Assembly: GCA_012512925.1 (NCBI GenBank)
Contig: JAAZDE010000151.1
Location: forward strand, 1 to 54,777
Direction: 5' to 3'
DNA: 54,777 bases
From: Desulfuromonadaceae bacterium
GTDB taxonomy: Bacteria; Desulfobacterota; Desulfuromonadia; Desulfuromonadales; JAAYDE01
In this document: positions 33,171 through 47,958 of the stretch, piece by piece
Layout of the letters: each line of letters starts with the position of its first letter
Position numbering within the stretch: the first letter of the stretch is position 1
Made by a program: the position numbers and the translations under genes
Notes under the pieces: model-generated
What the model was told of the DNA's origin: nothing
What the model saw: only the letters and a program-made list of their open reading frames with translations
Database searches by the model: none

Positions 33171-34085
33171 TTACCCCTCTTTCCCATATTCATATTCGAT
33201 CCGGTTGCGGCCTTTTCTCTTGGCCTGATAAAGTGCGTTATCGGCCTTTCGGATGAGTTCATCCATGGTGTCCCGGCCGTTCCATTTTGCCGCTCCAAGG
33301 CTCACCGTGATCCGTATCCGGTTTCCTTTCGCCTCGATATCCTCCGCAGCGATGGTTTCGAGGATCCTTTCCATGGCCTGAACTTCGGCGCCATTTTCCC
33401 CCTCCGGGAAAATGAGCAGAAATTCTTCCCCACCATAGCGGCCGAAACGTTCGTGTCTGCGGATTGAGCAGGATATCCGCCTGACGCACTCCTTGAGTAC
33501 CACGTCCCCCACCAGATGACCGAAGTTGTCATTGATCCGTTTGAAGTGATCGATATCAAGTACCGAGACCCAGAGGTGGTTTTTTTTACGCCTGGCTCTC
33601 GACATCTCCATCTCGAGGTGGTCGAGAATGGCCCTGCGGTTGGCGATTCCGGTCAAAGGATCGGCAAGGGCGAGCTTTTTTTGCTGCTCGATGGCCCGAT
33701 AGAGCTTGTCCTGGAGGTCAATCATCCTTTCCCCAACCCTCAGCCTGGCCCGCAGTTCCTCATTGTCGAAAGGTTTGAGGATATAGTCGTTGGCCCCCGA
33801 TTGCAGGCCCTCGACAATATCCTCCATTTTGGCGCGGGCTGTCAGCAGGATGAGGTAAGGGGGGAAAGGGTTCTTTTCGGCGCAAAGCCTGTGGCAGATG
33901 TCGACGCCGTTGAGCCCCGGCATCATCCAGTCGAGGATCGCAAGTTTGGGGGCGTTTTCCCGCCGTAGTATTTCCATGGCTTCGTTGCCGTCGCAGACGA
34001 CCACAACTTCATAGCCCCATTTCATCAATACCGCTTTCAATATCGAACGGGTGGTCAAATCATCTTCGGCAACCAGGATCCTCAT
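33171..34085 (-). CDS. response-regulator diguanylate cyclase (REC-GGDEF)
   Basis: REC (AEDD, LDWMMP, LLTA, KPF) plus DPLTG..NRR, DIDHFKRINDNFGH..GD, RYGGEEF. Confidence 0.95.
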   Translation of the reverse strand: MRILVAEDDLTTRSILKAVLMKWGYEVVVVCDGNEAMEILRRENAPKLAILDWMMPGLNGVDICHRLCAEKNPFPPYLILLTARAKMEDIVEGLQSGANDYILKPFDNEELRARLRVGERMIDLQDKLYRAIEQQKKLALADPLTGIANRRAILDHLEMEMSRARRKKNHLWVSVLDIDHFKRINDNFGHLVGDVVLKECVRRISCSIRRHERFGRYGGEEFLLIFPEGENGAEVQAMERILETIAAEDIEAKGNRIRITVSLGAAKWNGRDTMDELIRKADNALYQAKRKGRNRIEYEYGKEG

Positions 34086-34109: not shown

Positions 34110-38207
<4,098 letters not shown>

Positions 38208-38663
38208 CGTTTGCTTTTTCCTCATTATGAATTTTTTGTTTCTTGTTCCCTGTGGCCATCCGGAGAAGGTTCCGTTCGGTGTGGTTAAAATAGCACTCCT
38301 GGCCAAAGGTGGAGGAGATATCCTGGAATCAGGGGTCGACCTGAATTCAATGCAATTTTCTGTCTTTTGGAAAGGAACAGGGACATCAGTCATTCTTTCA
38401 AGAGGTTTTCCCTCGGGATTTTGGGAGGAAAAACCCACCATTGACAACTACGCATTCTTTGGGCGAACAAAAAATAAAATTATAATCTAAAAAAAGAAAA
38501 TCAGGGACGACAATACTTTTGGGCCATTTTTGTGTTAATTTTACATAATTTAAATGAAGCGTAGGGAAATAATCTGTACCAAGGGATGAAGTGGTTGAAA
38601 AAAGGAAAGGTCAGCGCCGTTTTTCGCCCAGCCATGGTATTGTTGATAAAGGAGGTTTGACTC

Positions 38664-38992: not shown

Positions 38993-40432
38993 TTAGAGAA
39001 AGGGAGAAAAGAGCTTACAAAAAGAGTCCCGGAGCCTAACGGGGAGGGGGCGCCCATCGACCTCCTCGAGAGTGACCTGGCGGGAGTTTCTGCGGGTCTG
39101 TTCGAAGTGCTCAGACAGAATTTTGACCGTTTCGGGATCGAAGACTTCCACATTGAATTCAAAATTGAGGCGCAGGCTGCGGGGGTCCAGATTGGCCGAG
39201 CCGACCAGGGCGAAGAAGGTGTCGACCAGCAGCAGCTTGTTATGGGCAAAGGGGGGTGGACGGTAGTAGATGCGGGTTCCATATTCGAGGAGCTCCCAGA
39301 GATAGGCCCGGGTCGCCCAGTGGACGTAGGGAAGATTGCTGCGTCCGGGCAGAATGATCTCCACCTTGACGCCGCGCAAGGCGGCGCTGTTGATGGAGGA
39401 GATCAGATCGCGGTCGGGGATGAAGTAGGGGGTCATGATCCGCACCCGCTGGCGGGCGCAATCAAGGGCACCCACCATCAGCCAGCGGAGTTTCTCGAAA
39501 TCCTCGTTGGGACCGGCGCTGATCCCCCGGCAGTAGGCGGTGCAGTCTTCCAGCGGTGGTGAATGAGGGCGGGTGCTGACCTCCTCGCCGGTGGCGAAAT
39601 GCCAGTCCTCAAGGAAGGTGTCCTCAATCTGACCGACCACCGGTCCTTCCGCCTGAAAATGGAGGTCGATCACATCCCCCCGGTCGATCTTACTGGAGAG
39701 CCAGCTGCGGCCGATGTTGATGCCGCCCGTGAAGCCGATTCTTCTGTCCACCGTAAGCAGTTTGCGGTGGTTGCGCAGATGGAGATGGAACATCCCCCAG
39801 GAGGTGAAGGGGGGGAGAAAACGAACGGTGCGCACGCCGGCCCGGTTCAACAGCGAGCGGGCTGAGGGTAAGGCATAACGCTCCCCCAGGGCGTCGACCA
39901 GGACACGGACATCGACCCCGCGCTGGGCGGCGGCCCCCAGCTCATTGATGAAGCGCCGCCCGATCCGGTCGCTGCCAAAGATGTAGGTGGACAGGAAGAT
40001 GCTCTCTTCGGCTTTGGCAATGGCCTGCAGCATGGCCGGGAAAATCTCGTTGCCGTTGATCAGGGGCCGCAGACGGTTGCCGGCGGTCAGCGGCCGCCGG
40101 GTGATGGCGTTGGAGAGATGGAGCAGGGCGGCGAGATTCTCCGCGGGGAAGGGAGGGACCGGATCGGCGGAAATGACGAAATGCCGGGACGCGGGGGTCA
40201 GCCACTGCATGCCGCGGCCGCTGGTTTGCCAACTGCGGGCGCGGGTGCGGATGCGGTTGACCCCAAGCAGCCAGTAAAGGCTGAAGCCGATGCCGGGAAT
40301 GAAAAGGCAGATGAGGATCCACACCAGGGCGGCGCGGGGATCGCGTCGGTAGAGCAGGGCGTGGCCGGCGGAGAAGAAGCCGGCCATCAGCAGTAACAGA
40401 CCAAATAGCCAGTTCAGGTGATGAAGGAGCAT
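38993..40432 (-). CDS. cls: cardiolipin synthase (PLD superfamily)
   Basis: Two N-terminal TMs and two HKD motifs (NHRKLLTVD, AHNKLLLVD..GSANLD.RS..LNFE), TPYFIP. ATG40432 follows GGAGG. Confidence 0.9.
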   Translation of the reverse strand: MLLHHLNWLFGLLLLMAGFFSAGHALLYRRDPRAALVWILICLFIPGIGFSLYWLLGVNRIRTRARSWQTSGRGMQWLTPASRHFVISADPVPPFPAENLAALLHLSNAITRRPLTAGNRLRPLINGNEIFPAMLQAIAKAEESIFLSTYIFGSDRIGRRFINELGAAAQRGVDVRVLVDALGERYALPSARSLLNRAGVRTVRFLPPFTSWGMFHLHLRNHRKLLTVDRRIGFTGGINIGRSWLSSKIDRGDVIDLHFQAEGPVVGQIEDTFLEDWHFATGEEVSTRPHSPPLEDCTAYCRGISAGPNEDFEKLRWLMVGALDCARQRVRIMTPYFIPDRDLISSINSAALRGVKVEIILPGRSNLPYVHWATRAYLWELLEYGTRIYYRPPPFAHNKLLLVDTFFALVGSANLDPRSLRLNFEFNVEVFDPETVKILSEHFEQTRRNSRQVTLEEVDGRPLPVRLRDSFCKLFSPFL

Positions 40433-40463
40433 CTCATTATGGCCTCCCGAAGCCGAAACTCCA

Positions 40464-41405
40464 CTACGGATTTTCCTCCAGGAACCGTTCCGCCTGAATT
40501 GCCGCCATGCATCCGGAGGCGGCGGCGGTGATTGCCTGGCGGAAATGGGGGTCCTGGACATCGCCGGCGGCGAAAACCCCGGGGATATTGGTCCTGGCCC
40601 CGGTGCCGGTCAGCAAATAGCCGCGCTCCTCCATCTCCACCTGCCCCTTAAACAGACCCGTGTTGGGGATATGGCCGATGGCGATGAAAAGACCGTCGCA
40701 GATCATTTCCTCCTCCTTGCCGGTGGCAACGTTCTTGAGGCGGATGCCGGTCAACCCTTTCTGTTTGTCGCCGAGGATGGCGCTTACCACCGAATCCCAG
40801 TGAAAGACGATCTTCTGGTTGGCGAAGGCCCGCTCCTGCAGGGGCGGCGAGGCGCGAAGGGCATCGCGGCGGTGGATGACATGGACCTTGCTGGCGAAAC
40901 GGGTCAGGAAGGTGGCCTCCTCCATGGCCGTGTCCCCTCCTCCGACCACCGCTACTTCCTTATCGCGGTAAAAGAAACCGTCGCAGGTGGCGCAGACCGA
41001 TACCCCCTTGCCGTAGAGTTCCTTTTCGTGAGGGAGGTCGAGCAGGCGGGGGGAGGCGCCGGTGGCGATGATGAGGGTGCGGCAACGATAGCTGTCGTCG
41101 CCGGCATGGATGGTGAAGGGGTAGGAATCAAGTTCTACCTTGGTCACCTCCCCGGCCAGGAAGCGGGCGCCGAAACGGCGCGCCTGTTTTTCCATCTCCT
41201 CCATCAGCACCGGTCCGTCGATCCCCTCGGCGAAACCGGGGTAATTCTCCACCAACGTGGTGGTGGTCAGCTGCCCTCCCGGCTGGCTGCCGTGAATGAC
41301 CAGCGGCTCCAGATTGGCGCGCGCCGCGTAGATGGCGGCGGTGAGCCCTGCCGGTCCCGACCCCAGGATGATGACGTTCAGTATCTCGTTATCTTTTTTC
41401 TGCAT
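40464..41405 (-). CDS. trxB: thioredoxin-disulfide reductase
   Basis: GSGPAGLTAAIY, GGQL..T..VENYPG, CATCDGFF, GGGDTAMEEA, FAAGDV..RQAITAA. ATG41405 follows AAGGAGG. Confidence 0.96.
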   Translation of the reverse strand: MQKKDNEILNVIILGSGPAGLTAAIYAARANLEPLVIHGSQPGGQLTTTTLVENYPGFAEGIDGPVLMEEMEKQARRFGARFLAGEVTKVELDSYPFTIHAGDDSYRCRTLIIATGASPRLLDLPHEKELYGKGVSVCATCDGFFYRDKEVAVVGGGDTAMEEATFLTRFASKVHVIHRRDALRASPPLQERAFANQKIVFHWDSVVSAILGDKQKGLTGIRLKNVATGKEEEMICDGLFIAIGHIPNTGLFKGQVEMEERGYLLTGTGARTNIPGVFAAGDVQDPHFRQAITAAASGCMAAIQAERFLEENP

Positions 41406-42264
41406 CGACAACCTCCTTGAACTGTTCTTCGGCATGGTAGGAAGACCTTACCAGGGGCCCGGCCTCGACATGGGCGAAGCCGATTTTCAGACCTTCCTTT
41501 TTGATTTCATCGAATTCCTCGGGGGGAACATAGCGGTGGACCGGATAGTGATTTCCGGTTGGCCGCAGGTACTGCCCAACCGTCAGCAGCCGGCAGCCGG
41601 CTTCGGCCAGATCGTTCATGGCTTCCGTCAACTCCCGGCGGCTCTCTCCCATCCCCAGCATCAGGCCGCTTTTGACCGGAATCGCCGGGTAGGTGTCGCG
41701 GACGCGGGCCAGCAGTTCGAGGGAGCGCCGATAGTCGGCCGCCGAACGGACCTGTGGGTAGAGTCGCGGCACCGTTTCCAGATTGTGCCCAAGAATATCA
41801 GGGCCGGCGGAAAGAATTCGTTGCAACGCCCGGGGATTTCCGCCCAGGTCGGGGATGAGCAACTCCACCCGGCAGGAGGGCGCGGCGCGGCGGATTTCAC
41901 CGACTACGGCGGCGAAAACGGAGGCGCCTCCGTCGGCGAGATCATCGCGGGTCACCGAGGTGATCACCGCGTGGCGCAACTCCAGTTCGGCGAGAGCGGC
42001 GGCCACCTTGGCCGGTTCTTCAGGCTCGGGGGGAAGGGGCTTGCCATGGGCGACGTTGCAGAAGGCGCAGTCGCGGGTGCAGAATTCGCCGAGGATCATG
42101 AAGGTGGCCGTTCCCCGGCTCCAGCATTCCCCCTGATTGGGGCAGGCGGCGCTGCGGCAGACCGAATGGAGGCCGTGGTCGCGGTGCCATTTTTCTATGC
42201 GGGCCGCCTTGGGGCCGCCTTGCGGGCGGACCTTTAGCCAGGCTGGTTTGCGCTCTTGCTTCAA
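41389..42264 (-). CDS. lipA: lipoyl synthase
   Basis: RKPAWLK, CRSAACPNQGECW (auxiliary cluster), CTRDCAFC (radical SAM), RSSY. Confidence 0.96.
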   Translation of the reverse strand: MKQERKPAWLKVRPQGGPKAARIEKWHRDHGLHSVCRSAACPNQGECWSRGTATFMILGEFCTRDCAFCNVAHGKPLPPEPEEPAKVAAALAELELRHAVITSVTRDDLADGGASVFAAVVGEIRRAAPSCRVELLIPDLGGNPRALQRILSAGPDILGHNLETVPRLYPQVRSAADYRRSLELLARVRDTYPAIPVKSGLMLGMGESRRELTEAMNDLAEAGCRLLTVGQYLRPTGNHYPVHRYVPPEEFDEIKKEGLKIGFAHVEAGPLVRSSYHAEEQFKEVVDAEKR

Positions 42265-42331
42265 AATAAAAGACCTTTCATCTCACCAAAAATCCTCATT
42301 CCCCGAAAGCAAAAATTATAACCCTCACCAG

Positions 42332-42982
42332 TCACCATTCACCCAGATGGATACTTTCGAAAACCTCGGCGAAGCAGTGGATCACCTGCCCCTCCACCTC
42401 CTCAATCGATGGTTCTTCTCCCAGGTGTTCAGCCATGGAGGTCATCTCCACCCCGGTGAGGCCGCATGGGACAATGGCGCCAAAAGGAGAGAGATAACCG
42501 CCGACATTGAGGGCAAAGCCGTGCCAGCTGATCCAGCGCCGTACGCCAACGCCGATGGAAGCGATTTTTCTGCCGGAAACCCAGACGCCGGTGCGGCCGG
42601 CGAGCCTCTCTGCGGAAATCCCGTAACGACGCAACAGCTTTACAAGGAGTTCCTCCAGCAGCCGCAGAAACCGGTGCAGGTCGCGATTGACGAGGTCAAG
42701 GCCGACGATCGGATAGCCGATGAGCTGACCGGGACCGTGGTAGGTCGTTTCTCCGCCGCGCCGGGCACGGATTACTTCGATGCCGCGGCTTTCAAAATAA
42801 TCGTGCGGCGCCAGAGGACGGAACTCCTTCACCTTGCTGCCGAGGGTGATTACCGGCGGATGCTCGAGGAGAATCAGGAAATCGGCTGTTCCCGCTTCCC
42901 TGTGGGCCAAGAGTTGTTGTTGCAAAGCAAGGCCCGCACGGTATGAGATCCGTCCGGGCCTCAAGGTGAAAAAACCGTTCAC
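42332..42982 (-). CDS. lipB: lipoyl(octanoyl) transferase
   Basis: EHPPVITLG, RGGETTYHGPGQL, KIASIG, HGFALNV, PCG. Confidence 0.95.
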   Translation of the reverse strand: MNGFFTLRPGRISYRAGLALQQQLLAHREAGTADFLILLEHPPVITLGSKVKEFRPLAPHDYFESRGIEVIRARRGGETTYHGPGQLIGYPIVGLDLVNRDLHRFLRLLEELLVKLLRRYGISAERLAGRTGVWVSGRKIASIGVGVRRWISWHGFALNVGGYLSPFGAIVPCGLTGVEMTSMAEHLGEEPSIEEVEGQVIHCFAEVFESIHLGEW

Positions 42983-43020
42983 ACCGAAACCTGTCCGATG
43001 CGGTTCGAGGTCATTCGGGG

Positions 43021-43212
43021 TTATTCAGACCAGTTGATACAGGAAACCGGGCAGTTTTTCATAACCTCCTCGATGCGGATTTCCGGAGCTCCGGCGGGGT
43101 TGTATACTTCGGCCAGGTCGAAGTGGTTGAAACGAAAAACCGCCGGAAGTGTATCCACGCAGAATCCGCAACGGATACATCTGTCCTGGTCAACAACCGG
43201 TTGCCGGATCAT
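43021..43212 (-). CDS. monocluster ferredoxin
   Basis: CIRCGFC...P.VF...CPVSCI, 63 aa, GAGG SD. Confidence 0.88.
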   Translation of the reverse strand: MIRQPVVDQDRCIRCGFCVDTLPAVFRFNHFDLAEVYNPAGAPEIRIEEVMKNCPVSCINWSE

Positions 43213-43220
43213 CAGCTACC

Positions 43221-43379
43221 TCATGCCGGTTCGAAATTGCTTTTGTCGGCGCCGCACAGAGGGCAGACCCAGTCATCGGGGATATCTTCGAAAGCGGTTC
43301 CCGGAGCGATGCCGCCGTCCGGGTCGCCAATTTCCGGATCATAAATGTAATTGCATACCACACAACGATATTTGGCCAT
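43221..43379 (-). CDS. rubredoxin (canonical CxxC...CPxC)
   Basis: Not in the ORF track. [52 protein letters not shown]; SD AAGGAG. Confidence 0.96.
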
Positions 43380-43516
43380 GATTTCTCCTTTAAATTGGGA
43401 TTTCCCTGTCAGGGGAAAATGGGATGATAGTGGCCTTAAATATTAATTGATCACAAAATATTTCGCAACCATGGGAAAGGGGAGATTGATTTTTTGTTGC
43501 AACAGAGTGAAACAAT

Positions 43517-46500
43517 TTATTGCACGGCATTTGTTTCCAGGCCATCGAAGACTCTTTCCAGATTGGTGTAGTTCAGCGGTTGGGTTTCTCCTCCCACGAA
43601 TTCGGCGATGCGCCGCATGCGCAACCGGATGGCCTCTTCGCTGCGATGGCGCAGATCCTCCTCGATTCCGGCGAAGCGGTCCTGAACAAAGGCTTCCTCT
43701 GTTTCCGGGGCCTCCTGGAGATCGAATTCCAGCCGCTCCTGCAGAAACTGCTGGAGCTTTTGATGATAATCGGGGCCGAAATAGAAGACCTCCCGCACCA
43801 ATCCGGAGAAGCTCCGCACGCCGCGGATGTCTTTGCTCTCGATACGATAGGCCTTGAGAAGTTCGGGTTCCAGGTCCTCATAGTTCTGCATCGGCATGTA
43901 CATGCGGGGGAGGTACTGAAGCACCTTTTCCGTTTTTCGGCGGTGTCCACCGATGATGACGGAAGCTCCCACCTCTGTTTTGTCCGCTCCCTTGATCCAC
44001 GGGGCGCCGGTGATGCCGAAATTGTTGAGCACCGGCAGGTTGATCAGCACGGAAAGGGTGTTGATGGCCAGGGCGAAGCCTGCCGAGGGGCCGCCCACCG
44101 TGTAGGAGGTGCTGAGTAACTGGTGATGGAGGGAATAGCCCTGAAGATATTGGCCGAGGACCCGTGAGACGTTCAGGTCCGGGCACAGGGACTGGAGGTA
44201 GTTTTCCACCAGGGTCAGCGCCTCCTGGGCGCTCTGCCGGGTCATCTGCACCGCCAGATCGATTTCGGCGGCGGCGGGGGAGGCGCTGGAGACCGCTCCG
44301 GTGACGACGATTTTCTCCGGGAAGATCTGGTAGACCAGGGAGGAGGCGATGGGGAGCAGGACGCCGGAGGTATCGTTGGCTCCCACCCCGACCACGAAAC
44401 CGACCTGGGGCTCTTTGGAGAGTTCCGTTTCCAGGAATTTGTCGAGCTGCTGTTTCCCCTTGCGGGTCGGGCTGTGGGCCAGTTGAATCTTGGCGTTGAC
44501 CAGATGGCGCTGAGTGATGGGATAGATCTTCTCGGCGCGGCGGTGGTCCATGTCGGCGGCGACCTCGTCGAGGCAGGAGAGCATCTCCTCTTCACTGCGG
44601 CGGGCCCTGGCGAAGAGATCGGAGCCGCTTGATACCGCCTCCATGAGGCTGAGGAGCGTCTTGGCGTTGAAGCGGACGAAACGGAGGCGCTCTTCCGGCG
44701 ATCCCTGAAGGGCGGTTTTCAGCTTGGCGAGGATTTCCACCTCGGTTTTGTGCAGACTGCGCACCTTCTCGGCGAAGGCGGTGAAATCGGCCGGGGTGTC
44801 GCACAGGCCCCGCGCCACCCGGACCATGTCCTCGTAGCCAAGTCCTTCGTCGAGGGGCATGCCGTCCAGTTCCTTGCGCAGGATGCGGATCGCGTCCTCT
44901 TCACGCAACTGCCCCGGCACGTTAAGCACCTTGAGCCGCTTGGAACGGATCAGGGCCGGGTCGAGGATGTCGAGGCGGTTGGTGGTCAGCACCGTGAAGA
45001 CGTGGTTGAGGGGGGATTCGCCGTCGATGATGGAAAGGAACTTGTTGGTCACCTTGTCGTAGGGGGAGCCTCCCTGCTGGCTGCGGCGCGGGGCGATGGC
45101 GTCCCCTTCGTCGAAGAAGACCAGACAGGGGGAGATCATTTTGGCGATGTCGTAGATCCGTTCCAGGTTCTCCACCATCGACTCATAGGGGTTGTTGGGG
45201 TCGGAGAGGTCGTTGACATGGACGGCGAGATCCTGAATCTCGGAATTTTCCCCCAGCCAGGCCTTGACCATATAGGTCTTCCCCGAACCGGGGGGGCCGG
45301 TGAGAACCACCCCCTTCTCGTCCTGGACATTGTAGTAGAGGGAGTTGTTGGCCATCTCGGAAAACTCGTCCTTGATCGCGCCGATGTAGTCCTGCCAGTG
45401 GACATCCCGTCCCATTCGTCCCGACACTCGGTTGTACAGGCCGCCGTAGACGTTCTTGGCCACCGACTTGAAGGCATCGCGGACCAGGAATTGGTCGTCC
45501 AGGTAGCCGGCCTTGAAGTCCCCCTTGAGGGTGATCACCGAATCGATCAGGCGGCGCACGTAGGCCGGGGTGATGCGCAGGCTGCGGTTGCGGAAGATGT
45601 TAGCCAGGCGGTTGACCGTTTCCTGGGCCAGGGCCTCGATGAGGGTCTTGTCTTCTTCGGAGGAAAGGTGAATAAAGAGGTTGTTGCGCCGCAGTTCGAG
45701 GCGCACCACCTCTTTGAGGTTGTTGGTGTCCTGCCAGTAGTCGCTGATGTCGATCACCTTGCCCCGTTCCACGAAGCGCCGGTAGAGCGACTGTTCGATC
45801 TGCTCCGGCTGGTCGGTGGTGGCGATCAGCAGGCAGTCTCTTTTGCCTTGAGTGATCTCGTCGAAGATAATGTTGGCGGTGTCGATCAGGGTCCCTTGCT
45901 GGCTTTTGACGGTGCTGGTCTGATCGGGGCGGCCGAAGGCGGAGTGAGCCTCTTCCAGATGACGGATGCAGGTCTGGTTGGGTTCGCCCATCGCCTTGCG
46001 CAGCCGGTTCCCCGGCTCCCCGGCAAAGGCGGTCTGGTAGTCGTTGGGGGTGATCACCGCGTAGTCGACGAAGATGCCGCTTTCTCCCAGGGAGTAGAGG
46101 GCCTCGGCCACCCGCTTGCGGTAGAGATACTTGAGGATGGGGATCCGTGACAGAAATTTGAGCTGTTCGATGCGGCGCATCCTTTCGATTTCCACCGCCA
46201 GTTCCGGGTCGACATCCTCCAGGCTTTTCCAGATCGGCTGGTTTTTGAGCACCTCCTCCTTTTTGGCCTTGAGGTCGATGGTGGGCCGCACCTCATTGGA
46301 GAAGATCGTCTCCTCCAGGGTCTGGGTTACCGTGGCGCTTTTGCCGCTGCCGGAGGGGCCGATGACCAGGATCAAAGGGGAGCGGGGGACGCTGGAATCC
46401 TGGGAATATTCCTTGAGGATGTGGGCACGGTAGATTTTTTCGAAAAAATCGTGCAGGGAAGGGGGAACGAAGATGTCGGCGGTTTCCCGCTCCAGCAGAT

Positions 46501-46846
46501 AGGTCAGGTAGTGATATTCATGCCAGTTGAGCTCGCGGGCGAGAATCTTGTTCCAGGCCGCGCCGGCGCTGGAGGAGCCGGAGATCTCGAAACGGCGATG
46601 CCAGTCGGAGAGCGCTTCCGGGTTGCGCAGCATCTGGAAGCGCCGCTCCGTGGACCACAGGAGGTTTTTGAACAGGTCGCGGAAGAAGCGCAAGGGGGTG
46701 CGTTTGGGGCGGAACTGGCGCAGCCGCTGGAGGACGAAAACGCGGCTTTCGTAGCTCCAGCTGTCCACCAGGTTCTGGATCTGGCGCAGCCGCTTCTCCG
46801 AGATGCGGACGTTGATGGGGGTTTTGGTTTTGCGCACCGTCGACAT
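43517..46846 (-). CDS. tandem AAA+ ATPase fused to a C-terminal Lon (S16) protease domain
   Basis: Walker A GPSGSGKS (res 163) and GPPGSGKT (res 517); Walker B HLEE and VFFDEGD; SRH TTNRLDILDPALIR; Lon motif GGPSAG (Ser921)...ITG...IGGHRRK (Lys971). Confidence 0.85.
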   Translation of the reverse strand: MSTVRKTKTPINVRISEKRLRQIQNLVDSWSYESRVFVLQRLRQFRPKRTPLRFFRDLFKNLLWSTERRFQMLRNPEALSDWHRRFEISGSSSAGAAWNKILARELNWHEYHYLTYLLERETADIFVPPSLHDFFEKIYRAHILKEYSQDSSVPRSPLILVIGPSGSGKSATVTQTLEETIFSNEVRPTIDLKAKKEEVLKNQPIWKSLEDVDPELAVEIERMRRIEQLKFLSRIPILKYLYRKRVAEALYSLGESGIFVDYAVITPNDYQTAFAGEPGNRLRKAMGEPNQTCIRHLEEAHSAFGRPDQTSTVKSQQGTLIDTANIIFDEITQGKRDCLLIATTDQPEQIEQSLYRRFVERGKVIDISDYWQDTNNLKEVVRLELRRNNLFIHLSSEEDKTLIEALAQETVNRLANIFRNRSLRITPAYVRRLIDSVITLKGDFKAGYLDDQFLVRDAFKSVAKNVYGGLYNRVSGRMGRDVHWQDYIGAIKDEFSEMANNSLYYNVQDEKGVVLTGPPGSGKTYMVKAWLGENSEIQDLAVHVNDLSDPNNPYESMVENLERIYDIAKMISPCLVFFDEGDAIAPRRSQQGGSPYDKVTNKFLSIIDGESPLNHVFTVLTTNRLDILDPALIRSKRLKVLNVPGQLREEDAIRILRKELDGMPLDEGLGYEDMVRVARGLCDTPADFTAFAEKVRSLHKTEVEILAKLKTALQGSPEERLRFVRFNAKTLLSLMEAVSSGSDLFARARRSEEEMLSCLDEVAADMDHRRAEKIYPITQRHLVNAKIQLAHSPTRKGKQQLDKFLETELSKEPQVGFVVGVGANDTSGVLLPIASSLVYQIFPEKIVVTGAVSSASPAAAEIDLAVQMTRQSAQEALTLVENYLQSLCPDLNVSRVLGQYLQGYSLHHQLLSTSYTVGGPSAGFALAINTLSVLINLPVLNNFGITGAPWIKGADKTEVGASVIIGGHRRKTEKVLQYLPRMYMPMQNYEDLEPELLKAYRIESKDIRGVRSFSGLVREVFYFGPDYHQKLQQFLQERLEFDLQEAPETEEAFVQDRFAGIEEDLRHRSEEAIRLRMRRIAEFVGGETQPLNYTNLERVFDGLETNAVQ

Positions 46847-46880
46847 GTTTTTCCTACGTTGGTCCTGTTTCCGCGGTTGA

Positions 46881-47918
46881 TTATCGGGGGGCAGTCTGCC
46901 AAGGGTACTGGTAGGTCCGCAGGGCTTCTCTCAGTGTCGGCTCATTCCCCTGGCCATCCATGGCGGCAACCCCGTTTTTTTGCGGCCGGGGTGGTCCCGG
47001 CGACGGCGAGGTCGGCAGAACCACGGGCGGGCTGCCTCCGGAATTGTTGAGGACGACGGTGTTCTGGCCGTGGACATTCTTTTCATAAGCCATGGCCCAT
47101 TTCTGCTGGTTGAGGAATTCGAAGAGCACCTGGTCGCTGCGCGAGTCGAGATTCAGCGCCTCGCGGAATTCGCGGATGGAATCACTGTAGGCGGCGTAGA
47201 GCTTGCGGGTCCGGCTCGCCTCCTGGTCGGCGGCGTAGTTTTCCGCCTCGGCGATCATCTCGCGGCGTTTCTTCTCTTCGCTGGCTTCGACCAACTTGTC
47301 GCCGAAGCGGGTATCCCGCAGGACGAAGGAGACGATCTCAACCCCGTACTTCCTTTCCAGGGTGGGTCCGCCGACGTTGATCGGCTTGTCCTTGAGAGAC
47401 TCATAGATCATTTCCTTAATCCGGGCGCGGTTGGAAATCAGCTCATCCACCGTCTTTCCCTGCATCACGTCCTTGACCATGCCGTCGAAATCAGCCTGCA
47501 GAAGTTCCTTGGGGGCGCGGTTTTCAATCCCCCATTTCTCCAGATCGAGGATGCGGTAGGTCATCATGGCACTGACATAGAGGGCCACATTGCCGCTGGA
47601 AATGATGCGCTGAACATCCGGTTCTCCCCCCAGGTAGAGTTCCTGGTTCATCAACGGCACCTCCAATTCCAGGCGGGAGAAGAAGGGGGGTCGGGCATGC
47701 CAGCCGACATCATCCACCACCCGCCGGTTGCCAGCCAGATCCTCCAGGATCACCGCGTAGTTGCGGCGCACCTTGTAGATGGTCTTGGTGGCGTAGACCA
47801 GAGCGATGGCGTAATAGAAAAGAATGCCGACGATCAGGAAGATACTGCCTTTTTTCAGGATGCTTTTTATCCTGCCTCGCTGCAGAAGCTGAAAACGCTG
47901 TTTGTCTTGCTGCTCCAC
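46881..47918 (-). CDS. SPFH/band-7 domain membrane protein
   Basis: One N-terminal TM, GWHARPPF, MTYRI.D, VDELISNR, KYGVEIVSFVLRD, then a coiled coil EEKKRREMIAEAE. GTG start after AAGGAGG. Confidence 0.82.
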   Translation of the reverse strand: MEQQDKQRFQLLQRGRIKSILKKGSIFLIVGILFYYAIALVYATKTIYKVRRNYAVILEDLAGNRRVVDDVGWHARPPFFSRLELEVPLMNQELYLGGEPDVQRIISSGNVALYVSAMMTYRILDLEKWGIENRAPKELLQADFDGMVKDVMQGKTVDELISNRARIKEMIYESLKDKPINVGGPTLERKYGVEIVSFVLRDTRFGDKLVEASEEKKRREMIAEAENYAADQEASRTRKLYAAYSDSIREFREALNLDSRSDQVLFEFLNQQKWAMAYEKNVHGQNTVVLNNSGGSPPVVLPTSPSPGPPRPQKNGVAAMDGQGNEPTLREALRTYQYPWQTAPR

Positions 47919-47949
47919 GCCATCCTCCTTTTTAAAAAGTTCCTAGAAT

Positions 47950-47958
47950 ATGATAGCA
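47950..47958 (-). promoter_or_regulatory. possible extended -10 promoter for the SPFH-AAA/Lon operon
   Basis: Minus strand TGCTATCAT (TGn-TATCAT), about 30 nt upstream of the SPFH start. Confidence 0.4.

What the first reader, a model, noticed from the sequence alone, without database searches (positions are those of the whole stretch)
43517..47918. SPFH scaffold co-encoded with the AAA-AAA-Lon protein: candidate new HflKC/FtsH-like membrane proteolysis system
Seen: a single-TM SPFH protein with a coiled coil ends 34 nt upstream of the protease gene on the same strand, behind its own SD and extended -10. The protease shows no obvious TM helix. Established: SPFH proteins form membrane cages that partner proteases (HflK/C-FtsH, prohibitin with m-AAA, stomatin-NfeD). 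Inference: the SPFH oligomer recruits or cages this soluble protease at the membrane, giving a two-gene quality-control or stress/defence module. Topology is unresolved: basic residues precede the TM, which could place the SPFH domain in the periplasm as in HflK/C.
Basis: partly seen in the sequence, partly recalled or inferred. Interest (0 to 1): 0.82.

Follow-up and report, generated by a model that had tools for sequence, protein, structure and literature searches.

The report
SPFH scaffold paired with Cdc48-Lon protease
A membrane-anchored SPFH scaffold gene and a gene for an unusual soluble protease (two Cdc48-type ATPase rings fused to a Lon protease domain) form a tightly conserved two-gene operon in sulfate- and metal-reducing bacteria, which points to a third, undescribed kind of SPFH-plus-ATP-dependent-protease partnership whose function is still untested.

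Summary
Window 46881-47918(-) encodes a 345-aa single-anchor SPFH/Band-7 protein. It is followed after 34 nt by 43517-46846(-), a 1109-aa protein with an N-domain, two Cdc48/VAT-like AAA modules and a Lon S16 domain whose Ser-Lys dyad is invariant.

- 79 of 80 genome loci (51-92% identity) have the SPFH gene directly upstream on the same strand. The one miss has only 23 nt of upstream sequence.
- 9 of 9 loci from a phylum sample and 3 of 3 metagenome loci show the same arrangement.
- In 401 genomes of the phylum, both genes occur in exactly the same 10.
- The two ORFs overlap in 63 of 78 loci, while the flanking genes differ.

The pair is therefore a real functional unit. Physical binding, caging and topology remain untested; the one complex prediction gave no verdict. 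The flanks are housekeeping genes, Hsp20 follows the pair in 10 of 80 loci, and no defence or mobile-element signal was found.

Best reading (0.55): a membrane-associated ATP-dependent proteolysis module that is analogous to, but not a member of, HflK/C-FtsH. I found no description of it in five literature searches. It is a new variant of a known kind.

The parts
47950..47958 (-). Candidate extended -10 (TGcTATCAT), 31 nt before the GTG start
   Evidence: Read by eye. The consensus scan did not call it.
47924..47929 (-). Shine-Dalgarno AGGAGG, 5 nt before the GTG
46881..47918 (-). SPFH/Band-7 gene (P0002, 345 aa)
   Evidence: Foldseek matches HflK/C, stomatin, prohibitin, QmcA and flotillin at E 3e-8 to 4e-6.
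47847..47894 (-). Conserved basic N-tail (residues 9-24; R14 invariant, K18 in at least 90% of sequences)
   Evidence: Alignment A4. The 15 residues before the hydrophobic segment carry 4-7 K/R in 77 homologs.
47790..47846 (-). Hydrophobic membrane segment (residues 25-43; Y35 and Y42 invariant)
   Evidence: AF2 draws a straight helix over residues 2-53.
47217..47771 (-). SPFH (Band_7) domain, residues 50-234
47088..47300 (-). Coiled-coil helices (residues 207-277) with a nearly invariant acidic/basic stretch
46847..46880 (-). 34-nt spacer with a weak GGA before the ATG and no terminator-like hairpin on the - strand
43517..46846 (-). AAA-AAA-Lon gene (P0001, 1109 aa)
46397..46846 (-). Family-specific N-region (residues 1-150): beta-alpha-alpha start at 3-44, then a helical bundle; no Pfam match
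46649..46705 (-). Amphipathic basic/aromatic helix (about residues 48-66), a candidate in-plane membrane anchor
   Evidence: Its hydrophobic moment is at the 99.9th percentile of the protein's own 14-mers. The equivalent segment is strongly hydrophobic in Desulfobacterales-type homologs.
45407..46396 (-). AAA module D1 (residues 151-480): Walker A G163/G168/K169/T172, E299, pore-loop-like F/W-x-G-E at 274-277, and an insertion at about 185-265
44747..45349 (-). AAA module D2 (residues 500-700): Walker A 517-524, E580, N623, R634 and R637 invariant
43787..44446 (-). Lon S16 protease domain (residues 801-1020)
44084..44086 (-). Codon of Ser921 in the GGPSAG motif, the catalytic Ser candidate, invariant
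   Evidence: Invariant in A1, A2 and A3.
43934..43936 (-). Codon of Lys971, the catalytic Lys candidate, invariant

Best explanation
The two genes are a co-translated operon that encodes one machine. P0002 is a membrane-anchored SPFH protein with all the parts of the ring/cage-forming SPFH proteins: an anchor, an SPFH domain, two coiled-coil helices and a conserved C-terminal strand. P0001 is a cytoplasmic hexameric type-II AAA+ unfoldase of the Cdc48/VAT kind whose exit is fused to a Lon-type Ser-Lys protease chamber. Substrates would enter at the N-domain/D1 face and be degraded in the same polypeptide ring. The SPFH oligomer marks a membrane patch and positions or gates the protease there. 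P0001 reaches the membrane through its N-terminal face: the amphipathic helix at about residues 48-66 plus contacts with the SPFH protein. That contact would be with the conserved basic N-tail if the SPFH domain is periplasmic, or with the SPFH/coiled-coil surface if it is cytoplasmic. The module would then extract and degrade membrane or membrane-proximal proteins, adding a quality-control or stress layer to the genome's ordinary Lon, FtsH and HflK/C. Shown here: gene linkage, co-occurrence, ORF overlap, domain identities and conserved catalytic residues. Inferred: oligomeric states, binding, membrane association of P0001, and the substrates.
For: Linkage:
- The SPFH gene lies directly upstream on the same strand in 79 of 80 genome loci, 9 of 9 loci from the phylum sample and 3 of 3 metagenome loci with upstream room.
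- The same 10 of 401 genomes carry both genes.
- The ORFs overlap in 63 of 78 loci, and the gap is 40 nt or less in 73 of 78.
- Flanks are not conserved: DUF362 in 17/80 loci and lipB in 3/80.
- Pairwise identities of the two proteins correlate at r = 0.95 over 76 loci with no outlier pairs. This is expected for co-inherited neighbours and shows no partner swapping.

Enzyme:
- PDB sequence hits to VAT/p97/Cdc48 reach E 4e-44 in 2 stretches, and Foldseek hits to Cdc48/p97 reach E 5e-21.
- The Walker A/B residues, sensor, Arg fingers, and Lon S921 and K971 are invariant down to 33% identity.

Scaffold:
- Band_7 match; fold matches to HflK/C, stomatin, prohibitin, QmcA and flotillin cages; conserved coiled coil and C-terminal strand.

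Membrane proximity of P0001:
- Residues 48-66 are amphipathic or hydrophobic.

Proteostasis context:
- Hsp20 lies on the same strand downstream in 10 of 80 loci, within about 111 nt in 8 of them.

Added layer:
- The genome also has four Lon-length frames, one FtsH and an HflK/C-like pair.
Against: There is no direct evidence of binding, and no RNA evidence worth weight. One 229-nt contig of an RNA library reaches from the SPFH 3' end across the spacer, but only 29 nt into the protease gene, and DNA carry-over is not excluded.

Topology is ambiguous. Both flanks of the hydrophobic segment are basic, with a mean of 5.17 K/R before it and 3.45 after it. If the SPFH domain is periplasmic, only about 24 residues of P0002 are available to a cytoplasmic partner.

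The D2 pore loop lacks the usual aromatic-hydrophobic-Gly motif (read by eye).

Hsp20 accompanies the pair in only a minority of loci. Linkage was shown only down to 48% identity, because no context could be obtained for the eight full-length representatives at 33-52% identity (P0123, P0125-P0130, P0132).
Confidence: 0.55

Rival explanations
1. The SPFH protein is the client rather than the scaffold. The AAA-Lon enzyme assembles, trims, extracts or dismantles the SPFH oligomer, as the NfeD/STOPP serine protease acts on its operon-partner stomatin. The module would then control turnover of an SPFH microdomain.
For: The operon logic is the same as the solved QmcA-YbbJ SPFH-NfeD pair (8z5g, title seen). 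Co-occurrence is strict at 1:1. The conserved basic N-tail and the variable, proline-rich C-tail of P0002 are exposed, disordered ends of the kind an unfoldase could grip. A Cdc48-type segregase is suited to pulling subunits out of assemblies (established knowledge of the family).
Against: A 1109-aa double-ring unfoldase-protease is a heavy investment for one client. No conserved cleavage motif was found in the tail. The C-tail motif in some homologs coincides with the ORF overlap. Hsp20 linkage in 10/80 loci suggests broader proteostasis.
Confidence: 0.2
2. The pair is a stress- or phage-triggered defence/abortive module. The SPFH protein senses membrane perturbation and unleashes the ATP-dependent protease on cellular or invader proteins.
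For: Distribution is patchy: 10 of 401 genomes of the phylum, and 0 of 8 in two sister families of the same class. The D2 module gives weak hits to the defence ATPase IetA (E 1.3e-11, residues 505-653). ATPase-plus-protease pairs exist among defence systems (IetAS, listed in PADLOC).
Against: The IetA and TRIP13 hits cover only the generic AAA core, and P0002 hits no PADLOC model. The flanks are housekeeping genes: lipB, a radical-SAM (lipA-like) gene, DUF362, alanine dehydrogenase, tRNA methyltransferase and CinA. The Lon-like part has no match in 72,556 plasmids or 50,697 phage records. Only 7 weak AAA-only matches turned up in viral contigs. Identities track the host lineages.
Confidence: 0.1
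3. The genes are co-expressed but act independently, with no physical contact. For example, both may be induced by the same envelope or heat stress.
For: No binding evidence exists. Operons can group stress genes that do not bind each other.
Against: One-to-one co-occurrence without a single exception in either direction, ORF overlap in 63 of 78 loci, and retention of only this pair while flanks change are typical of subunits of one complex.
Confidence: 0.1

Closest known systems
HflK/C-FtsH (E. coli); PDB 7wi3, 9cz2 and 7vhq seen
   Same: An SPFH oligomer with an N-terminal anchor, SPFH domain, coiled coil and C-terminal cap partners an ATP-dependent hexameric protease at the inner membrane. 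P0002's basic N-flank resembles that of the genome's own HflK-like protein.
   Different: Here there is one SPFH gene, not a K/C pair. The protease is a Ser-Lys S16 enzyme, not an M41 zinc protease. It has two AAA rings instead of one and no transmembrane helices. The genes are adjacent and overlapping. The hflK NCBIfam model scores 17.2 against a cut-off of 159.4. The genome has its own HflK/C-like pair and FtsH elsewhere.
Stomatin/QmcA-NfeD operons (QmcA-YbbJ, PDB 8z5g; P. horikoshii stomatin)
   Same: The SPFH gene and a serine-protease-related gene sit side by side in one operon. By sequence profile, the nearest solved SPFH proteins are stomatin (E 8e-4) and QmcA (E 1.2e-3).
   Different: The partner has no NfeD domain. 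It is ATP-dependent, about ten times larger and soluble.
Prohibitin with m-AAA protease, and erlin1/2 with p97 in ER-associated degradation (the partnerships are recalled, not from a call; prohibitin cage structures 9o9z and 8rrh were seen)
   Same: An SPFH ring is coupled to an AAA+ unfoldase or protease that removes membrane proteins. Erlin-p97 pairs an SPFH protein with the same Cdc48-type ATPase family as P0001.
   Different: Those are eukaryotic organelle systems with separate protease or proteasome and ubiquitin signals. Here the unfoldase and protease are one polypeptide in a bacterium.
Lon proteases (LonA, LonB, LonC)
   Same: An S16 fold with a GGPSAG-type catalytic Ser and an invariant Lys, C-terminal to an ATPase in one chain.
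   Different: The ATPase part is two classical Cdc48-like AAA modules, not the single Lon-type module. There is no LonA N-domain and no LonB membrane insertion. The lon and LonB NCBIfam models score 29-35 bits against cut-offs of 517-723.
Cdc48/p97/VAT (with the 20S proteasome in archaea; Cpa in actinobacteria, PMC6017811, abstract seen)
   Same: A tandem D1-D2 classical AAA architecture, with best PDB matches at E 4e-44 and Foldseek E 5e-21.
   Different: The N-domain is unrelated, with no CDC48_N hit. The protease is fused rather than docked. The aromatic pore-loop motif is in D1, not D2 (read by eye). TIGR01243 scores 101 bits against a cut-off of 802.

Membership tests
SPFH / Band 7 superfamily (P0002) | Match to the Band_7 profile above the curated cut-off | tested here: met
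   PF01145 at 65.1 bits against 23.6, E 1.1e-17.
SPFH / Band 7 superfamily (P0002) | SPFH alpha/beta fold followed by a long coiled-coil helix, as in the solved cages | tested here: met
   Foldseek matches to HflK/C at 3.4e-8, stomatin at 4.4e-8 and prohibitin at 2.5e-7. The AF2 model is of modest quality (pLDDT 64.1; SPFH1 region 45-89 below 50).
SPFH / Band 7 superfamily (P0002) | Assembly into a membrane-attached ring or cage | not testable with these tools
   Inferred only, from the conserved coiled coil and C-terminal strand.
HflK/HflC | Equivalog-level sequence match | tested here: not met
   TIGR01933 hflK scores 17.2 bits against a cut-off of 159.4.
HflK/HflC | Two paralogous SPFH genes side by side forming a hetero-oligomer | tested here: not met
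   There is a single SPFH gene in the pair. The genome's adjacent HflK/C-like pair lies on contig C171.
HflK/HflC | The partner is FtsH (M41 zinc protease with transmembrane helices) | tested here: not met
   The partner has Lon_C and no transmembrane helix. Peptidase_M41 occurs once elsewhere, on C34.
HflK/HflC | SPFH domain facing the periplasm | tested here: inconclusive
   The N-flank is basic like HflK, but the C-flank is also basic.
Stomatin-NfeD operon | An adjacent NfeD-domain partner | tested here: not met
   No NfeD family appears among the Pfam hits of P0001 or of the neighbours scanned.
Lon protease (MEROPS S16) | Lon_C profile match and a Ser-Lys dyad | tested here: met
   Lon_C scores 22.1 bits (26.4 for the domain alone) against a cut-off of 21.1, which is marginal. 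S921 and K971 are invariant in 38 sequences down to 32% identity. Assigning them to the dyad rests on motif position, which is recalled.
Lon protease (LonA/LonB equivalogs) | A single Lon-type AAA+ module and family-level sequence match | tested here: not met
   TIGR00763 scores 29.7 against 608, TIGR02902 35.2 against 723 and TIGR00764 29.1 against 517. The protein has two Cdc48-like modules.
Cdc48/p97/VAT | Tandem classical AAA D1-D2 | tested here: met
   PDB hits with 2 matched stretches, best E 4e-44; Foldseek E 5e-21.
Cdc48/p97/VAT | Subfamily-level match and a CDC48-type N-domain | tested here: not met
   TIGR01243 scores 101 bits against 802.65. No Pfam family reaches its curated cut-off on residues 1-150; at a limit of E 10 the only hit is Propep_M14 at E 0.017 and 15.7 bits against a cut-off of 22.1.
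IetAS defence system | An IetA ATPase with a subtilase-type IetS partner | tested here: not met
   IetA models match only residues 505-653, at E 1.3e-11. No IetS-like hit was found, and P0002 matches 0 PADLOC families.

The most novel reading that the evidence does not exclude
This is a bacterial counterpart of SPFH-guided, Cdc48-driven membrane protein extraction. A ring of SPFH subunits corrals a membrane patch. A peripheral Cdc48-like double-ring segregase, fused directly to its own Lon protease chamber, docks on the cytoplasmic face through an in-plane helix and the SPFH N-tails. It pulls out and destroys the corralled membrane proteins. This would be a third, independently evolved SPFH-AAA protease machine and the first with a non-membrane-integral protease.
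Probability: 0.3. Interest if true: 0.8.

Novelty: new variant of a known kind. Interest (0 to 1): 0.62.

Why it matters
SPFH proteins are universal, yet their mechanism is understood mainly through two protease partnerships: HflK/C with FtsH, and prohibitin with m-AAA. A third partnership with a differently built protease would test whether scaffolding ATP-dependent proteolysis is a general SPFH function. This protease is soluble and has a Cdc48-type double ring fused to Lon. The system is also compact: two genes that cultured carriers already possess. The AAA-AAA-Lon architecture itself, a segregase with a built-in protease, appears undescribed. It would interest the AAA+ field as a natural fusion of a Cdc48-type unfoldase with a protease.

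Tried and rejected
- Complex prediction on P0001 residues 1-480 with full-length P0002, using alignments A3 and A4: score 0.01, no verdict, controls not run. This is evidence neither for nor against binding.
- RNA evidence: 4 runs were laid. Only short contigs of RNA-labelled libraries touch 46818-47226, and none bridges the protease start by 31 nt or more on both sides. This is not usable as proof of co-transcription.
- Context of the distant clades (33-38% identity; P0125-P0132):
  - The viral-contig scan gave 7 AAA-only matches.
  - The genome scan kept only the best 80 of 340 relatives.
  - Loci L116, L118, L122, L126 and L128 hold frames of 773-785 aa that look like ordinary Lon genes, by length and neighbours only; no family scan was made. 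I set them aside.
- N-domain identity: no Pfam family reached its cut-off for residues 1-150 or 1-45. The beta-alpha-alpha start resembles a ribbon-helix-helix only by order of secondary structure, so I dropped that idea.
- The conserved C-terminal tail motif seen in some SPFH homologs was rejected as a docking signal, because it coincides with the 71-nt overlap with the protease gene.
- The sigma-70 scan found no promoter on the - strand upstream of the SPFH gene.
- Five literature searches and passages of PMC2636767, PMC11188069 and PMC7159879 gave no description of this pair. Supplementary files were not consulted and might hold neighbourhood tables.

Full report
**Observation.** The coordinates are exact. 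ORF 46881..47918(-) is 345 aa with a GTG start, and ORF 43517..46846(-) is 1109 aa with an ATG start. They lie on the same strand, 34 nt apart. An AGGAGG sits 5 nt before the GTG. A TGcTATCAT that could serve as an extended -10 lies 31 nt upstream, but it is seen only by eye, and the consensus scan called no promoter on the - strand there. That scan also found no terminator-like hairpin on the - strand in the spacer. The gene upstream is divergent (DUF362 with a 4Fe-4S dicluster). The next gene downstream on the - strand is a lipoyl(octanoyl) transferase, 534 nt away.

**The two proteins.**

P0002 is an SPFH protein.
- Band_7 matches at E 1.1e-17 over residues 50-234.
- There is one hydrophobic segment, at 26-44.
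- The AF2 model has pLDDT 64.1. It is good for residues 90-205 and poor for 45-89. It shows a straight N-terminal helix (2-53), the SPFH fold, and helices 207-255 and 259-277.
- Foldseek matches the cage-forming SPFH proteins about equally: HflK/C 3.4e-8, stomatin 4.4e-8, prohibitin 2.5e-7, flotillin 2.7e-6 and QmcA 3.9e-6.
- By sequence it is remote from all solved ones. phmmer found none at E 0.01 or better. A family profile reaches stomatin at 8e-4 and QmcA at 1.2e-3.

P0001 is a tandem classical AAA protein.
- PDB hits to VAT and p97/Cdc48 reach E 4e-44 in two stretches, and Foldseek hits to Cdc48/p97 reach E 5e-21.
- A C-terminal Lon S16 domain scores marginally: 22.1 bits in the whole protein and 26.4 alone, against a cut-off of 21.1.
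- In alignments reaching 32-33% identity, these residues are invariant: the D1 P-loop (G163, G168, K169, T172) and E299; the D2 P-loop (517-524), E580, N623, R634 and R637; and the Lon GGPSAG Ser921 and Lys971.
- The enzyme therefore looks fully active in both rings and in the protease. Assigning these residues to Walker motifs, sensor, Arg fingers and the Ser-Lys dyad rests on established motif knowledge, not on an assay.
- By eye, an aromatic-x-Gly-Glu pore-loop motif sits in D1 (274-277), while the D2 loop is atypical.
- The AF2 model (pLDDT 81.9, pTM 0.63) adds an N-region of about 150 residues without any Pfam match, a long insertion in D1, and C-terminal helices after the Lon domain.
- No transmembrane helix is present. 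The most hydrophobic 19-mer lies inside the Lon domain, directly after Ser921.

- In a sample of 401 genomes of the phylum, full-length homologues of P0001 occur in 10. The other 12 matches at E 1e-20 or better cover only the AAA core.
- P0002-type SPFH genes at E 1e-15 or better occur in exactly the same 10 genomes.
- In all 9 genomes other than the window's own, the SPFH gene lies directly upstream on the same strand.
- A scan of one genome per species found 340 stretches encoding relatives, and the best 80 (51-92% identity) were kept. Of these, 79 have the SPFH gene directly upstream. The one exception, L062, has only 23 nt of upstream sequence.
- Three metagenome loci with upstream room, one at 48% identity, also have it.
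- Taking the nearest in-frame ATG at or before the alignment start as the protease start, the two ORFs overlap in 63 of 78 loci, and the gap is 40 nt or less in 73 of 78.
- The surroundings are not kept. The window's DUF362 neighbour recurs in 17 of 80 loci and lipB in 3 of 80. No third gene is universal.
- Pairwise identities of the two proteins over 76 loci correlate at r = 0.95 with no outlier pair. For co-inherited neighbours this is expected, and it only shows that partners were not swapped.
- Together these results establish a two-gene functional unit. The loci are related genomes, so the counts overstate independence. The changing flanks across several orders named in the records are the stronger argument. 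Those records name Desulfuromonadales, Desulfobacterales-type and Deferrisomatales MAGs.

**What travels with the pair.**
- Hsp20 follows on the same strand in 10 of 80 loci, within about 111 nt in 8 of them.
- An alpha/beta-hydrolase of the S33/S9 kind precedes the pair in 17 of 80 loci.
- A second SPFH protein (Band_7_1 with zinc ribbons) plus an unassigned protein precede it in 7-8 Desulfosarcina-type loci.
- In the window the neighbours are lipoate synthesis genes, an oxidoreductase, a PLD-type gene, alanine dehydrogenase, an RND efflux system and signalling proteins.
- PADLOC gives only generic AAA hits for P0001 (IetA, TRIP13) and nothing for P0002.
- The Lon-like part has no match in the plasmid or phage collections. 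Viral contigs gave 7 AAA-only matches.
- The genome also has four Lon-length frames, one FtsH and an HflK/C-like pair, so the module is an addition, not a replacement.

**Topology and membrane contact.**
- In 77 homologues, the 15 residues before the hydrophobic segment carry 4-7 Lys/Arg (mean 5.17) and no acidic residue. The 15 residues after it carry 2-4 (mean 3.45) and almost no acidic residue.
- In the same genome, the HflK/C-like proteins have acidic or neutral C-flanks. The two short stomatin/QmcA-like paralogues have uncharged N-flanks and basic C-flanks.
- By the positive-inside rule (established knowledge), P0002 is most simply N-in with a periplasmic SPFH domain, as in HflK/C. The basic C-flank, an invariant Tyr35 followed by small or polar residues in mid-segment, and the slightly closer sequence kinship to stomatin/QmcA leave open a monotopic insertion with both ends cytoplasmic.
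- I put this at roughly 55:35, with the rest for N-out. That QmcA faces the cytoplasm and HflK/C the periplasm is recalled, not taken from a call.
- The N-tail is itself conserved (R14 invariant, K18 in at least 90% of sequences). That is more than a topology signal needs.
- P0001 has a helix at about residues 48-66 that is poorly conserved in sequence. In Desulfuromonadales-type proteins it is basic, aromatic and amphipathic, at the 99.9th percentile of hydrophobic moment within P0001. In Desulfobacterales-type proteins it is among the most hydrophobic 14-mers of the protein, at the 98-99.9th percentile in most rows.
- This is the signature of an in-plane membrane anchor, but that reading is an inference.

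**Mechanism.** I commit to a membrane-associated ATP-dependent proteolysis module at 0.55.
- The SPFH oligomer defines a membrane patch.
- The Cdc48-like/Lon hexamer docks with its N-domain/D1 entry face toward that patch, through its own helix and the SPFH protein.
- It unfolds or extracts membrane or membrane-proximal proteins and degrades them in the fused Lon chamber.
- The SPFH ring acts as scaffold or gate, as HflK/C does for FtsH.
- True caging of the protease is unlikely by inference. Its three tiers would stand taller than a cage built on a first coiled coil of about 50 residues.

The rivals are:
- The SPFH protein is the client, with stomatin-NfeD logic (0.2).
- The pair is a stress or defence trigger (0.1).
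- The genes are co-expressed without contact (0.1).

**Comparison with known systems and novelty.** The pair works like HflK/C-FtsH and prohibitin-m-AAA. By recall, it also resembles erlin-p97. It fails the membership tests of each:
- The hflK, lon, LonB and CDC48 models all score far below their cut-offs.
- There is a single SPFH gene.
- The protease is a Ser-Lys enzyme without transmembrane helices.
- There is no NfeD domain.

Public records name the proteins only 'AAA family ATPase' and 'SPFH domain-containing protein', with some evident misnomers.

Five full-text searches found no description of the pair or of a Cdc48-Lon fusion. Nor did passages of the SPFH classification paper PMC2636767, of PMC11188069 or of PMC7159879. 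Other papers were seen only as listings or abstract starts, and supplements were not seen. I class the pair as a new variant of a known kind.

**Limits.**
- No binding, localisation, activity or expression was measured.
- The complex prediction gave no verdict.
- RNA-library contigs were too short to prove co-transcription.
- Context for the most distant relatives, including one record named as a Woesearchaeota MAG, and for the archaeal AAA + Lon_C clusters of about 910 aa could not be fetched.

Noticed in passing
L019:6479-6925 (+); also L021, L024-L028, L032 (close), L023, L031 (1.2-1.4 kb away): An Hsp20/alpha-crystallin gene lies on the same strand after the AAA-Lon gene in 10 of 80 loci. 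This hints at a three-gene proteostasis operon in part of the Desulfuromonadales-type clade. It is absent from the window.
   Followed up: partly
L068:2126-3646 (+) and L068:3522-4868 (+); likewise L072, L074, L077, L086, L088, L095: In Desulfosarcina-type loci, a second SPFH protein (Band_7_1 with several zinc ribbons) and a protein of about 410-510 aa without a Pfam match lie upstream on the same strand. The cluster may therefore have four genes there.
   Followed up: partly
L058:1577-2338 (+) and 16 further loci: An alpha/beta-hydrolase (S33/S9 peptidase-like) gene precedes the SPFH gene on the same strand in 17 of 80 loci, 20-390 nt away.
   Followed up: partly
not in the window (ESM Atlas clusters): Archaeal clusters (Thermoproteota, Bathyarchaeota; about 909-919 aa; 118 and 110 members) carry AAA plus Lon_C and score 0.97-0.98 by language-model features against P0001. 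They may be a shorter archaeal form of the same fusion. Their gene context is unknown.
   Followed up: no
window 42998-43381 (+): A 127-aa ORF without a Pfam match sits between the protease gene and lipB, convergent with the pair. It is retained in only the three closest loci (L016, L017, L050).
   Followed up: partly
window 38993-42982 (-): Downstream on the same strand are lipB, a radical-SAM (lipA-like) gene, a pyridine nucleotide-disulphide oxidoreductase and a PLD-type (cardiolipin-synthase-like) gene. This block is shared with only the three closest loci.
   Followed up: partly
window 34110-38447 (-) and 33171-34085 (-): A 1445-aa hybrid sensor kinase (PAS, GAF, HisKA, HATPase, two receiver domains, Hpt) lies next to a receiver-GGDEF protein.
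   Followed up: no
L018-L030 and others: In 13 loci the SPFH ORF overlaps the protease ORF by 71 nt. The apparently conserved C-terminal tail of those SPFH proteins is encoded by the conserved 5' end of the protease gene in another frame.
   Followed up: partly
G000 contigs C102, C16, C171, C37 (L001-L006): The genome carries five further Band_7 matches: two short stomatin/QmcA-like proteins, an adjacent HflK/C-like pair, and one longer protein on C37.
   Followed up: partly
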